Below, piece after piece: positions 366 to 36,184 of a stretch of 51,265 nucleotides of DNA. Both the position numbers and the translations under genes were made by a program. The stretch's first letter is position 1. Each line of letters opens with the position of its first letter. The DNA comes from Octopus sinensis (taxonomy: Eukaryota). The stretch spans positions 1-51,265 of the forward strand of contig NW_021834206.1 in the NCBI RefSeq assembly GCF_006345805.1. Reading direction: 5' to 3'. Below the pieces are notes generated by a model that was given only the letters and a program-made list of their open reading frames with translations, searched no databases and was not told the DNA's origin.

Positions 366-558
366 ACGGGAAGCTTTATGAAAATAAACAAAAACGAAGG
401 CAGGTGGAAAACAAACGAACATTGTATTAGTTTGCGCTCAGGAAATATAAATAAAACAAGTCTTTAACGTTTCGAGCCTACGCTCTTCAACAGAAAGATA
501 CACAGAGAGAGAAAAACACAGAAAGAAGAGAGAAAAAAAAATGCGTGCAGTAGCTAAC
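366..558 (-). mobile_element. TA-embedded mini-element (family B) with minimal hammerhead-like motif
   Basis: Flanked by (TA)n. Minus 461-498 reads tcttt-CTGTTGA-a-gag cgtagg ctc-GAAA-cg-TT-aaaga. Homologous to 8490-8645 and 21660-21880. Confidence 0.6.
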
Positions 559-860
559 ATATATATATATATATATATATATATATATATATATGGAACA
601 ATCGCAATAGAGGACATTAAAACATTCGGACAGATGACGATAAAAAGGCGGACAGCAGGCTAAAAAGGCACGGTCATTCGTGGCTTTCTTTCCTTACTCA
701 AGTTCTAGAATCACGACTATTTCGGGCAGTTGCACTTAAGATGGTTCGATCTGGTTATATTATATATATATACCTACATATATATATATATATATTATAT
801 ATATATTATATATTATATATATATATATATATATATATATATATATATATATATATATAT

Positions 861-945
861 CCTTTATTAATAAAGCTGCAAATACCTCACATAAACTATT
901 AATCAACTTTCGTGTTCCTGTTCGTTGGACAACTTTGGTTGAGTA
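861..945 (-). repeat. Degenerate copy of family C (hammerhead-like element seen at 27284)
   Basis: Minus reads tgtccaacgaacaggaacacgaaa...gcagctttattaataaagg, similar to 27284-27378; flanked by (TA)n. Confidence 0.5.
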
Positions 946-1429
946 TATAAATATATATGTATGTCCACATTAGTATATATTTATATATCTGTGTATACAT
1001 GTATGTATAGTTATGTATATGCATTATCTCTCACTGACTCTGTCACTCAATATACACATATATGTGTGCGTGCATGTGTGTGTGTGTGTGTATCTGTTTA
1101 TGTATACACCTATTTTCATCGAAGTTACAGTTAGCGTTGGCATTGTTTACGAAGCTGAATATCAAGATCCTAAACTCTATTTTCGTTCTGCATTGGCATG
1201 TGTGTACGTGCTTAAATATACATTCAGACGTATCCATCACTTCACTCTTTCATTTTCTTCCCCATTTCTTGTCTCCTTCTCTGTATAAACACTCACGCAC
1301 AAACATACACATGCTCACAAATATAAACAAGCTGATATACATACTCATATATACATACATACATGTATATATATTATATATATATATATCTATATATATG
1401 AGCGTGGGGCGTATTTGTTCCCTGTATAC

Positions 1430-1610
1430 TTTAATTATTAATATTATTATTATTATCATTATTATTATTTTTATTATACTATATTATATTATATTATTAT
1501 TATTATTATTATTATTATTATTATTATTATTATTGTTTATTGTTATTGTTATTATTATTGATGTTGATGCCGTTGCTGTTGTTGTTTTTGTTGTTGATTT
1601 TGTTGCTATT
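1430..1610. repeat. (TTA)n/(TTG)n microsatellite
   Basis: Direct reading. Confidence 0.95.
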
Positions 1611-2479
1611 ATCATCTTTCATTCTCCTTATTTTATTGCAAGAAGATGTCTAATCTTGCTTGTTTTAAGCCTACTCGACAATTACATTAATACAATCTTA
1701 ACACCACAAAACTTAGCCCGAGAGGAAATAAGCAATCTTTATCAAGATTTTCGTCACTAAAAATTAATTTTCTCTCCAAAACAATGGCAAAGGCTTGTAA
1801 AAATTTGATGTTCGTTTTCAACAAAATCGAAATTACCTAACCAAATTTATCTTTCTGTTAATGTTAGGTATTTTATTTTCCTTATTTTCTTTTTTACCTG
1901 TCATTTTTCTTTGTTTTTTCTTTCATTTTATATTCTCAGGTTCGTAAATTTTTTACTGTTATGTCGGTGTACGTGTGTGAGCGTGTGCTAAGACAAATAT
2001 ATCTTGTAATGTTAATTTAAAATTTCTCTGCTTGTTTAGCTGTATATATAACACTGTATTTACATAACATTTTGTTTTTCTCTATGGATTTACTGGTTTC
2101 TCCATCAATCTGTCTGTCCGTCTTTGACTGTAGTACCTGTCTTTCACCTTTCTTCTCTATATTTGTATATGTATACATAGATAGATGTTCATTTGTGTGC
2201 GCGCGTCATTTGTATATATAGCATATTATAACACATATGTGTGTTTGTGTGTGTGTGTGTGCAGTAGTGTTCGGGGATGTGATGTACCTATATATGGGCA
2301 TATATCTATGCATGTGTTAGTATGTGTGTATATTATATATATATATATATGGTAATATATATATATATATATATAGAGAGAGAGAGAGAGAGAGAGATAC
2401 ATGTATATATGTATTTATATGAATATATATATGTGTATATATATATACATATATACGTAAATATATATGTATATGCGTG

Positions 2480-2870
2480 ACCATCGTCCATCTTTCTTTC
2501 CTTCACGTGATCAATTTTGTTTCCCTTCAGAGCTGTCGTACGTGGAGACTGCACTTATCCTATATGCCTTTTTCTCTCGTCAAAGAAAGTATTTCTTGTT
2601 TGTTTTCGTTCGGTTTCCTTGTATGTCTTCACTGTCCTGTTTTTGTTACCAGCTTTGACCCTCCGCAAATTTCAGTTCAGCTTTTGAGGGAGGAACTGCC
2701 TTCGAAGACTCGTTTTGTCAATGAATGTTCGAAATGAAGAGTAGATGAACAGCCGACAACAAATGAATGGTTGTTCTTTATGTTATTTGTCATATTTTTC
2801 ATTTGTTTCTCTCGGTTTTCGCGTATCAACTCATTTCCTTTTGCATTTCGTGTTGTTTACGGTTAATGAT
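2480..2870 (+). repeat. Interspersed repeat family A copy
   Basis: Homologous to the reverse complement of 60-330 and to 11720-11830. Confidence 0.65.
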
Positions 2871-3699
2871 GTTCTGTACCCATATATGCATATGTATGTA
2901 TGTATGTATGTATGTATGTATGTATGTATGTATGTATGTATGTATGTATGTATGTATATATATATATATATATGTATATATATATATAATTCAGGGTGAA
3001 TACTTTCAAGGTGAATACTTGATAATTGTAGGCACCTGTATATGCCAGTTAGTGGTGAAAAGTTGGTGAAAAGCCAGAAACATGTTTACCGCTTAATCCT
3101 TTGCATCATGTTTTTCTTTTGATAAATTATATATATATATATATATACAGAGAGAGAGAGAGAGAGAGAGAGAAGAGAGATATATAGAATATATATATAT
3201 ATAATATATATATTATATAGATATATATTATATAGATACATACATACATACATATACATAATAATACATACATACATACATACATACATACATACATACA
3301 TACATACATACATACATACATACATACATACGTCCTGAAGCAGAAAGCCCCTTCACCAGTACCACCACCTAAAACATGTATATTTATGGAGAGAGAGAAA
3401 CTGGAATAGTGGAAGTGATTTACTATTGAAACTCCAAGAAGAACTAGTAGTATTTATAATCCCATATATATTCTGGAACATCTGAAAGCAAGCCGTCAAT
3501 AATAATCTAATGTACTCAATGTAATACCACGGATTCTATGACATGCAGAAAACAAAGTTTAACACCGGAGATTGTTTATAAAATATCTAGTTACACCATC
3601 CTACGCATGATGATATAATTTACATAACATAACAGCTAATAATTCTTTGTCAATGGAAGGTGTGTAAGATAGTGTAACTAAATGGTTTGGAAAGAATCA

Positions 3700-3848
3700 C
3701 TGCATGGTGTTTCTTTTACTTTCTTTCTCAAGAAAGTCTAGCGTCTGAAACGTCAACATATTCTTTTATTTAAGCATGAAACTGATACAACTGCTGCTAA
3801 AATATTCCGCTCCTATCTCGTCCGCTTTTTGTGCTCACTGTCAACTAC
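3700..3848 (+). repeat. Highly degenerate family B copy
   Basis: ctttCTCAAGA...GAAAcgTC at 3723-3754, followed by an aaactgataca...tctcgtc tail resembling 8580-8630. Confidence 0.4.
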
Positions 3849-3957
3849 ATATATATATATATATACACGGTGGCTAGAATGCAGGTTTACGGTTATTCAA
3901 CTAGCTCTTTCTCATTCATATATTAAGAGTTTAGATCTTAATTATAGAAAAGAAAAA

Positions 3958-34318: not shown

Positions 34319-34478
34319 TATATATACATCTTTGTATGTAAGTCATTATTCAGTTTATTTCAAGATTTGTTGCCAATAGAGAAAGAACCGGTATCAAACC
34401 CAGATCCAAAACTCCTTCACTAGAATTTCAACATCAACAAGGTAGTTTTGTTTGTATTTACGTATGTATGTATGTATG

Positions 34479-34726
34479 TTTAAATGTACACAAATGCATA
34501 AAAATAATTTGAAATTCCATTAGTCATTCTAAAATACTATTAAATTTCATTCAATTTTAAAAAAGTTAAAATCGGACAGAACTTATGGGATGACCTGGTA
34601 TATATACATCTTTGTATGTAAGTCATTATTCAGTTTATTTCAAGATTTGTTGCCAATAGAGAAAGAACTCCTTCACTAGAATTTCAACATCAGCAAGGTA
34701 GTTTTCTTTGTATTTACGTATGTATG
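34479..34726. repeat. Tandem duplication of the mariner 5' end, TIR and flank
   Basis: Copy of ~34199-34470 at an offset of 280 bp, with a ~24-bp deletion. Confidence 0.9.
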
Positions 34727-35111
34727 TACGCAACCACTATGTTTTGGATTCACGTTTATGTATAAATATTCATAATCGAGTACTTCGTATATACACACTC
34801 AGTCATATGAGCATAAATAACCAGTCACACCGACACGCACTCACACACACATGTACACAGAAACACAAATATATTCACACGGGTTAGTTACAAGCACATA
34901 CTCGCACATAGATAAACACACATTAATTGTTGAAGGACAATTGACATGAATCTTCCTGTATAGGTAACATCGATTATAGAAAATAAGATACATAAATTTA
35001 TATACCCGGTCACAGGCATATACAAGACTACGTAGATTTATACATACGTACATAGATACATATATCCATATATAAAGAATATATATATATTTCATAGCAT
35101 TTTTTCCGATG

Positions 35112-35181
35112 GCCGGATAACTGAAGAGATGGCGGCGTGGATTTCCACCTCGGCATCCGAAACTCGGAGTTTTATCATGGC
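35112..35181 (+). ncRNA. Type I hammerhead ribozyme motif (family D)
   Basis: gccggataa-CTGAAGA(35121)-gatggcggcgtgg attt ccacctcggcatcc-GAAA(35159)-ctc g gag-TT-ttatcatggc. Confidence 0.75.
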
Positions 35182-35319
35182 TAGCGAATAATAGTCACAT
35201 CTTACATTACAGATATATATATATATATATATATATATATATATATATATATATAATAAATATATAATATATATATTATATATATATCTGTAAATGTAAG
35301 ATGTGACTATTATTCGCTA

Positions 35320-35389
35320 GCCATGATAAAACTCCGAGTTTCGGATGCCGAGGTGGAAATCCACGCCGCCATCTCTTCAGTTATCCGGC
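35320..35389 (-). ncRNA. Type I hammerhead ribozyme motif, inverted copy
   Basis: Exact reverse complement of 35112-35181. Confidence 0.75.
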
Positions 35390-35608
35390 CATCGGAAAAA
35401 TGCTATGATATATATATATAATATATATATATATATATATATATATATATATAATATATATATATATATATATAATATATATATATATAACAATTTAGGA
35501 ATGGCCTTAACAGGCCATTCGTCCACTAGACAGAGCAGCCATAACTCCAACCGCCAAGTAATGTAATTCGGAAATAGGTGAAAAATTAAAAACGTTTACC
35601 CTAATTCA

Positions 35609-35706
35609 TCTTAGACGATGCATCGTTTCTGCGTTTTTAATGATAGACCAGCTTAATTAAATTAAATTAAGCTAATCTACCATAGGTCACGCTTCGTCAG
35701 TAAAGA
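35609..35706 (-). ncRNA. Type I hammerhead motif with long stem II (unit 1)
   Basis: tcttta-CTGACGA-agcgt..atggtagattagcttaat/attaagctggtctatcat..acgca-GAAA-cgatgcatcg-TC-taaga; GUC site. Confidence 0.7.
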
Positions 35707-36083
35707 AACCTTTGGTAGAGGCAAATATACACGAGGCTACTGCATCGAAGCCTCTGGAATATCTGTCTTAAAATTTTCGAAGACCAGCGCAATCGCGCCA
35801 ACCTTATCAGCCATAATATAAACTGCCGATTCAATCTCAGAATTAGTCAGAAAATAATCAATTAATCAATTAGGGTAGTAAAAAATTCGATAGAAATTTA
35901 TCACTACCAGCGGCCCAGTGGAAAAGAAAAATAGTCATGAGACTAAAATGTAAATATATAACAATTTAGGAATGGCCTTAACAGGCCATTCGTCCACTAG
36001 ACAGAGCAGCTATTACTCCAACCGCCAACCGAGTAATGTAATTCGGAAATAGGTGAAATATTAAAAACGTTTACCCTAATTCA

Positions 36084-36184
36084 TCTTTTAGGCGATGCAT
36101 CGTTTCTGCTGCGTTTAATGATAGACCAGCTTAATTAAATTAAATTAAGCTAATCTACCATAGGTCACGCTTCGTCAGTAAGAA
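36084..36184 (-). ncRNA. Hammerhead motif (unit 2), cleavage triplet reads GCC
   Basis: tctta-CTGACGA...GAAA-cgatgcatcg-CC-taaaa. Confidence 0.55.

What the first reader, a model, noticed from the sequence alone, without database searches (positions are those of the whole stretch)
366..36184. Several unrelated microsatellite-embedded mini-element families share minimal hammerhead motifs with recurring core variants
Seen: about ten motifs in at least five sequence families, at 461(-), 8527(+), 21742(+), 10287(-), 14116(+), 27284(-), 29909(+), 35112(+), 35320(-), 35609(-) and 36084(-). They share a type I layout and, where intact, a 2-10-nt palindromic stem III. Variants recur: CCGANGA in three families, UUGAAAA, and an A inserted after A9. 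Known: Penelope-like elements carry minimal and variant hammerheads. Inference: a large, likely under-described population of TA-targeted, ribozyme-bearing non-autonomous retroelements (roughly one motif per 5 kb here).
Basis: partly seen in the sequence, partly recalled or inferred. Interest (0 to 1): 0.8.

Follow-up and report, generated by a model that had tools for sequence, protein, structure and literature searches.

The report
Penelope retroelement ends carrying hammerhead ribozymes
The self-cutting-RNA (hammerhead) motifs are real and abundant, but most are cut-short tail ends of an already known class of jumping genes (Penelope-like elements) that landed in TA repeats; two short tandem families are likely passengers of the same machinery, and one successful lineage keeps an unusual, untested change in the ribozyme core.

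Summary
All 11 cited motifs exist and three more were missed. Density exceeds chance: 10 descriptor hits against a mean of 0.28 in 100 shuffles. In 80 evenly spaced 10-kb stretches there were 36 hits against 0-1, about one per 22 kb, or roughly 120,000 genome-wide by extrapolation. The reading as non-autonomous mini-elements mostly fails. The 14 motifs fall into 10 families. In 6 of them, longer copies run upstream into Penelope-like (PLE) coding sequence (Neptune-type or Hydra-type by motif), so the window copies are 5'-truncated ends. Two families are unresolved. Two (475 and 556 nt, head-to-tail) look non-autonomous, like non-LTR retrozymes. The U3-A8 core, the extra base after A9, the palindromic stem III, TA targeting and truncation are all published for PLEs. 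CCGANGA is family-level in only one of the three claimed families. Cleavage is untested. The scan noted the same kind of thing in another genome (e1-7882047).

The parts
366..558 (-). Family A: 5'-truncated 3' end of a Neptune-type PLE between two TA tracts; hammerhead 461-498, core CUGUUGA plus an extra A (A6U), predicted cut after 466
8481..8645 (+). Family A2 (older relative of A, 77% identity): 3' end fragment; hammerhead 8528-8563, core CUGUGGA plus A (A6U)
10203..10459 (-). Family B: 5'-truncated 3' end of a Neptune-type PLE; hammerhead 10287-10325 with U3-A8 core; one G of the family's CCGG stem III is lost in this copy
10502..11578 (-).
14060..14273 (+). Family C, old decayed copy with a short inverted 5' piece; hammerhead 14116-14172; its CCGAAGA is not typical of the family
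21655..21876 (+). Family A3 (65-71% identity to A/A2): 3' end fragment; canonical-core hammerhead 21742-21777, decayed (G12A); ORF link not reached
27046..27285 (-).
27279..27378 (-). Family D: fold-back pair of truncated 3' ends of a Hydra-type PLE, cut off at the junction with D'; hammerhead 27284-27323 with family-level U4C core
29719..30040 (+). Family E: old 3' end fragment with a short inverted 5' piece (29719-29777); hammerhead 29909-29958; the family core is mostly canonical; ORF link not reached
35090..35212 (+). Family C: truncated 3' end of a Hydra-type PLE; canonical hammerhead 35116-35176
35288..35407 (-). Family C: second copy (98% identical) facing the first across a TA tract; hammerhead 35325-35385
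35489..36553 (-). Family F: 2.3 head-to-tail copies of a ~475-nt non-coding unit, one hammerhead per full unit (35609-35703, 36086-36181); non-LTR-retrozyme-like

Best explanation
The motifs are minimal type I hammerhead sequences in the 3' ends of Penelope-like retroelements: six of ten families are cut-short copies of coding elements, two more likely are, and two are short head-to-tail units likely copied by the same enzymes. Shown: fixed 3' ends abutting (TA)n, variable 5' ends, inverted 5' pieces, an optional ~70-nt 3' tail in C and D, and RT/GIY-YIG coding sequence upstream in longer copies. Inferred from PLE literature: the element's GIY-YIG nicks a TA tract, reverse transcription starts inside the RNA about 35-125 nt downstream of the predicted cut site and usually stops early, so the hammerhead-bearing end is the part most often deposited. 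Inferred: the palindromic stem III would let two motifs in a tandem transcript cleave as a dimer, probably with protein help. Single genomic copies would be inert and decay; stems and cores are kept by selection on the source elements.
For: Anatomy: family A 3' end followed by TA/CA repeat in 29 of 29 ends, B in 18 of 19; 5' extents from 0 to >=1.5 kb; two A copies share 4.4 kb. Coding link: B upstream hits Pfam RVT_1 (33.5 and 34.2 bits, cut-off 29.6) and GIY-YIG (23.4, cut-off 22.6), with a CX4CxxC linker. A shows DKG and RT motifs, the same linker type and GIY-YIG at E=8e-4, below cut-off. An A-type endonuclease lies upstream of an A2-type motif in sample stretch L046. C, D and D' have mutually similar endonuclease C-termini with CxxC..E..N..CxH (E 1e-16 to 1e-8); the D piece matches Atlas clusters at 0.95, one automatically named GIY-YIG. 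Selection on structure: B and its sister family (open frames of 780-781 aa) keep U3-A8 while stems I, II and III all differ yet still pair. In 28 of 30 family C copies fetched by upstream sequence only, core substitutions were 6/280 against 155/2283 in flanks (non-CpG sites, p=0.0015). Literature: PMC4209133, PMC8557442, PMC11167929.
Against: No cleavage or expression data. Families A3 and E share about 0.7-1.1 kb upstream but no ORF was reached. Pfam does not recognise the C, D or D' pieces (0 relevant hits in 3). Clade names rest on motifs only, with no tree against reference PLEs. Core-versus-flank conservation in hit sets chosen with the motif in the query was significant in only 2 of 9 families (A2, C), not in 6, and reversed in D, where inverted arms confounded the alignment. 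No hammerhead family appears among the 150 listed of 421 Rfam matches. No PLE partner with sequence similarity to F was found among the loci held.
Confidence: 0.87

Rival explanations
1. One reading: all families are independent non-autonomous, ribozyme-bearing mini-retroelements.
For: True-looking for F: closed ~475-nt unit, head-to-tail junction in 14 of 18 loci by pattern plus arrays in L149 and L150 by BLAST, arrays with inversions, fold z=-5.7. Likely true for G. A3 and E have no ORF link.
Against: 6 of 10 families continue without a break into PLE coding sequence, and their 5' ends are scattered.
Confidence: 0.07
2. F and G are satellite-like local tandem expansions of solo PLE terminal repeats, not RNA-mobilised units.
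For: Arrays of many units exist; bioRxiv 10.64898/2026.07.22.740005 proposes local tandem amplification from a PLE end.
Against: F occurs as dispersed monomers and short arrays on many contigs at 94-98% identity, with fixed 3' ends in TA, variable 5' ends and inversions like the PLE copies.
Confidence: 0.2
3. In the variant lineages (A6U in A/A2, U4C in D) the hammerhead is a non-cutting vestige kept for folding or protein binding.
For: A6C and U4C lower activity in vitro (PMC3088659). The predicted monomer fold of A pairs U4-U7 with A14-G16.2, away from the active shape. Catalytic mutants did not impair insertion by a PLE in vitro (PMC11167929).
Against: All other core positions and the stems are kept across A subfamilies while N7 varies; U4C is tolerated in a viroid in vivo.
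Confidence: 0.3
4. Chance matches in AT-rich, repeat-rich DNA.
For: The relaxed descriptor is permissive and gave 5-15 hits per sample shuffle at score >=7.
Against: 36 against 0-1 at score >=11; palindrome enrichment p=1.5e-6; motifs conserved in families.
Confidence: 0.01

Closest known systems
Minimal type I hammerheads (min-HHR) of metazoan Penelope-like elements (Cervera & De la Peña 2014, PMC4209133)
   Same: Type I layout, short stem I, extra base between 9 and 10.1, G10.1-C11.1 in most, palindromic 15.2-16.2/loop 3, U3-A8 variant, thousands of mostly single copies from truncated PLEs.
   Different: Higher estimated number (about 120,000 against about 2,000-9,000 in the genomes it lists, by a different method); family-level A6U and U4C cores, not seen in the passages read; several families with stem II inserts of 30-70 nt.
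Neptune-type EN+ PLEs (described in Craig et al. 2021, PMC8557442)
   Same: Families A and B: RT with DKG, CX4CxxC linker, C-terminal GIY-YIG, 3' hammerhead, microsatellite targets.
   Different: The linker is also found in Nematis; the clade was not tested on a tree.
Hydra-clade PLEs (Craig et al. 2021, PMC8557442)
   Same: Families C, D, D': CxxC and CxH (RFKH in one decayed D' copy) flanking the conserved E and N, (TA)n insertion, hammerhead present.
   Different: Only endonuclease C-termini and one linker-like piece were seen; RWK and DKT motifs not tested; D has a U4C core.
Non-LTR retrozymes (Cervera & De la Peña 2020, PMC7229834; Li et al. bioRxiv 10.64898/2026.07.22.740005)
   Same: Families F and G: non-coding head-to-tail units with one type I hammerhead each, as monomers to multimers.
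   Different: Units (475, 556 nt) are longer than the 170-400 nt circles of the 2020 paper but within the 51-972 nt of the preprint; the motif is PLE-type with a long stem II; no RNA evidence.

Membership tests
Minimal type I hammerhead of PLEs | Core boxes CUGANGA and GAAA (or U3-A8) with NUH cut site | tested here: met
   Family majority canonical in A3, C, D', E, F; U3-A8 in B; one fixed deviation in A/A2 (A6U) and D (U4C)
Minimal type I hammerhead of PLEs | Stems I and II pair and covary between families | tested here: met
   B against sister family; many distinct stems among 36 sample hits; no formal covariation statistic was run
Minimal type I hammerhead of PLEs | Palindromic minimal stem III | tested here: met
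   22 of 31 against 5 of 37, p=1.5e-6
Minimal type I hammerhead of PLEs | Self-cleavage as a dimer | not testable with these tools
   Cofolding favours dimers in 3 of 3 tried, with the expected shape only for B and partly for D; no assay
EN+ Penelope-like element | ORF with RT followed by C-terminal GIY-YIG upstream of the motif | tested here: met
   B by Pfam over cut-off; A by motifs and sub-cut-off Pfam; A2, C, D, D' endonuclease end only
EN+ Penelope-like element | Same, for families A3 and E | tested here: inconclusive
   Shared upstream sequence of about 0.7-1.1 kb, no ORF reached
EN+ Penelope-like element | 5' truncation, inverted 5' copies, partial tandems, optional 3' tail | tested here: met
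   the D tail runs on into ORF-like sequence in L365
Neptune clade | CX2-5CxxC linker before GIY-YIG | tested here: met
   A and B translations
Neptune clade | Placement on an RT tree with reference PLEs | not tested
   No reference PLE sequences were held
Hydra clade | CxxC and CxH around conserved E and N | tested here: met
   C, D, D'
Hydra clade | RWK, DKT and CxCX5C motifs; RT tree | not tested
   No long C, D or D' copy was fetched
Non-LTR retrozyme (F, G) | Non-coding tandem unit with a type I hammerhead in consecutive units | tested here: met
   one of the two window F motifs is decayed
Non-LTR retrozyme (F, G) | Transcribed, self-cleaved and circularised RNA | not testable with these tools
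   No run on record as RNA; contigs only
Non-LTR retrozyme (F, G) | Similarity to the terminal repeat of an autonomous PLE | tested here: inconclusive
   F against the 363 loci then held found only F-like units; those loci are under 0.1% of the genome

The most novel reading that the evidence does not exclude
A recently active, roughly 30,000-copy Neptune-type lineage has kept an A6U hammerhead core across several subfamilies. It is either an unreported working core variant or a non-cutting ribozyme kept for its shape, and so a natural test of whether Penelope-like elements need ribozyme cleavage, in an animal genome with about 100,000 hammerheads.
Probability: 0.3. Interest if true: 0.55.

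Novelty: new member of a known kind. Interest (0 to 1): 0.3.

Why it matters
As a class this is known biology. What it adds: an estimate of about 85,000-170,000 near-intact hammerhead motifs in one genome of a group for which two searches found no such report; a tie between core variants and particular PLE lineages; and two young retrozyme-like families. The role of PLE hammerheads is still open (PMC8557442 calls it unclear; PMC11167929 found cleavage dispensable in vitro), and the A6U and U4C lineages offer ready natural substrates.

Tried and rejected
Rfam scan: the 150 listed of 421 matches were microsatellite-driven miRNA and similar hits below gathering score; no hammerhead among them, 271 not shown. 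The repeat finder was swamped by simple repeats; masked self-BLAST was used instead. Strict descriptors found 0-4 window motifs. Core-versus-flank tests on motif-selected hits are biased and were mostly not significant; D was confounded by inverted arms. Ten loci that duplicated another locus were dropped before those counts; two loci (L302, L304) that may be one insertion were both kept. RNA evidence: no RNA holder listed; laying four guessed-RNA contig sets showed cover only and says nothing on expression or cleavage. Lünse et al. 2017 was not held under DOI, PMC id or PubMed id; its content on core variants is unseen. One supplementary file of PMC4209133 was not searchable. The idea that family D's fold-back is part of the element was rejected: copies fetched by upstream sequence are plain 3' ends. 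The idea that G is a second A6U lineage was rejected: 4 of 4 readable relatives have A6. A 3'-end tally for family C failed because the patterns were too loose; C's two ends were read by eye.
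Full report
Setting. The window is the whole of contig G000:C10677 of a 2.72-Gb genome; 20% is simple repeat against 12.5% in a genome sample. I take the animal to be an octopus from recalled repeat motifs; no call names the organism.

Observation. All 11 cited motifs are present in type I order at or within 5 nt of the stated places. Three more were found: 27097-27182(-), 10778-10831(-) and 11332-11385(-). A strict descriptor finds 2 in the window. A relaxed one finds 10 at score >=8 against a mean of 0.28 in 100 shuffles, none reaching 10; its variant boxes came from this window, so that test is partly circular. 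In 80 evenly spaced 10-kb stretches it found 36 at score >=11 against 0-1 in five shuffles: one per 22 kb, about 122,000 genome-wide (Poisson 86,000-169,000). The window is about four times denser than that. With stem III unconstrained, 22 of 31 real hits were palindromic there against 5 of 37 shuffled (p=1.5e-6).

Families. The 14 motifs fall into ten families. Genome searches returned up to 30 loci for each of nine families (68/73); G's relatives came only from loci already held. They share fixed 3' ends running into TA repeats (A 29 of 29, B 18 of 19), scattered 5' ends, frequent inverted 5' pieces and, in C and D, two alternative 3' ends about 70 nt apart. This is the PLE insertion anatomy described in PMC8557442 (passages and section 11).

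Link to coding elements. Family A: 9 of 28 other loci share about 1.5 kb upstream, the limit of the fetched flank, reaching a GIY-YIG frame with a CX4CxxC linker. Two copies share 4.4 kb, with DKG and RT motifs; Pfam GIY-YIG is below cut-off. A2: an A-type endonuclease lies upstream of an A2-type motif in L046. B: Pfam RVT_1 and GIY-YIG over cut-off. C, D, D': related endonuclease ends with CxxC..E..N..CxH lie 0.2-1.5 kb upstream of the stretch searched; Pfam misses them, the Atlas gives GIY-YIG-named clusters at 0.93-0.95. These match the Hydra description by motif. A3 and E share about 0.7-1.1 kb upstream but no ORF was reached. F is a closed ~475-nt unit: head-to-tail junctions in 14 of 18 loci by pattern, long arrays with inversions, no coding link among 363 loci. 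G is a second such unit, 556 nt, with relatives in 5 other loci. So 6 of 10 families are truncated coding PLEs, 2 are unresolved and 2 look non-autonomous.

Core variants. In the sample the first box was canonical in 20 hits, U3-A8 in 5, U4C in 5, A6U in 4, and any other single change in 0-2, so these three are heritable variants, not decay. U3-A8 is family-level in B and in a sister family with 780-781-aa open frames whose three stems all differ yet pair. U4C is family-level in D (19 of 19 parsed of 20; 7 of them with G5A, which fits CpG decay) but not in C or E. A6U is in 28 of 28 A and 20 of 20 A2 copies, and in 7 of 8 sample copies caught by one pattern, with N7 varying. It aligns with A6 of the homologous family A3. 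A plus A2 extrapolate to about 31,000 copies (14,000-58,000). Core against flank: in C copies chosen without the motif, 6/280 against 155/2283 at non-CpG sites (p=0.0015) and 12/308 against 177/2438 at all sites (p=0.03). In motif-selected sets only 2 of 9 families were significant and D was reversed by an alignment artefact.

Mechanism. Shown: the anatomy above, and predicted cut sites about 35-125 nt upstream of the 3' ends, so insertions do not end at the ribozyme cut. Inferred from PMC11167929 (passages and section 3 part 2): nicking of AT-rich DNA, reverse transcription from two internal start sites that give the optional tail, a protein-assisted hammerhead, and cleavage dispensable in vitro. 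Inferred from PMC4209133 (text parts 1-2 of 4 and supplement passages): weak dimer cleavage through the palindromic stem III. F and G would be copied in trans, as proposed for non-LTR retrozymes in PMC7229834 (passages) and bioRxiv 10.64898/2026.07.22.740005 (parts 1-3 of 5; supplements closed). In that preprint only 1 of 9 tested dimers cleaved.

Comparison with what is known. The extra base after A9, the palindromic stem III, U3-A8 and the mass of single truncated copies are in PMC4209133, whose alignment includes two molluscs and no octopus (one file unsearched). U4C is known from a viroid and A6C from a phage (PMC3088659, passages and section 8). A search for 'hammerhead ribozyme' with 'A6U' listed two papers whose titles concern other RNAs (listing only). 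Searches for cephalopod or octopus with Penelope and hammerhead gave no direct report. An octopus repeat annotation lists 31 recently active Penelope-like families and never uses the word ribozyme (PMC13282606, part 1 and passages). Lünse et al. 2017 could not be read; from recall it reports about 150,000 PLE-associated variants, so it may already hold A6U.

Verdict. Real, abundant and of a known kind; the non-autonomous label fits only two of ten families. Interest 0.3. The A6U lineage is the part worth testing.

Noticed in passing
window 26779-26938: Near-perfect inverted pair of element ends, each finishing in a small hairpin and CTAG at a TA tract; looks like a Helitron-type 3' end (recalled pattern); up to 11 hits in the 800-kb sample.
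   Followed up: no
window 9681-10111, 12287-12487, 17630-18092, 26025-26438, 28465-28882, 30189-30369, 39355-39938, 44963-45432, 47490-47910, 50630-50781: Very abundant SINE-like repeats, 80-157 hits each in the sample, often split by internal microsatellites.
   Followed up: no
window 1-2639 and 36782-37439: Match G000:C11 near 9.23 Mb (99%) and 9.25 Mb (96%, inverted); the contig start may be a redundant assembly overlap.
   Followed up: partly
L133, L141, L146: Family G copies lie within about 1 kb of family F copies in 3 of 20 F loci; G and a divergent F subfamily have similar last ten bases.
   Followed up: partly
L347-L350 (G000:C6, C1, C8): PLE copies with uninterrupted 775-781-aa frames and an upstream long open frame, suggesting recent activity.
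   Followed up: partly
sample L031-L110: Many further hammerhead families absent from the window, several with 40-75-nt stem II inserts and 6-nt palindromes.
   Followed up: no
window 34200-34704: Tandem duplicate of about 280 nt, 90% identical; no hammerhead hit by the descriptor.
   Followed up: no
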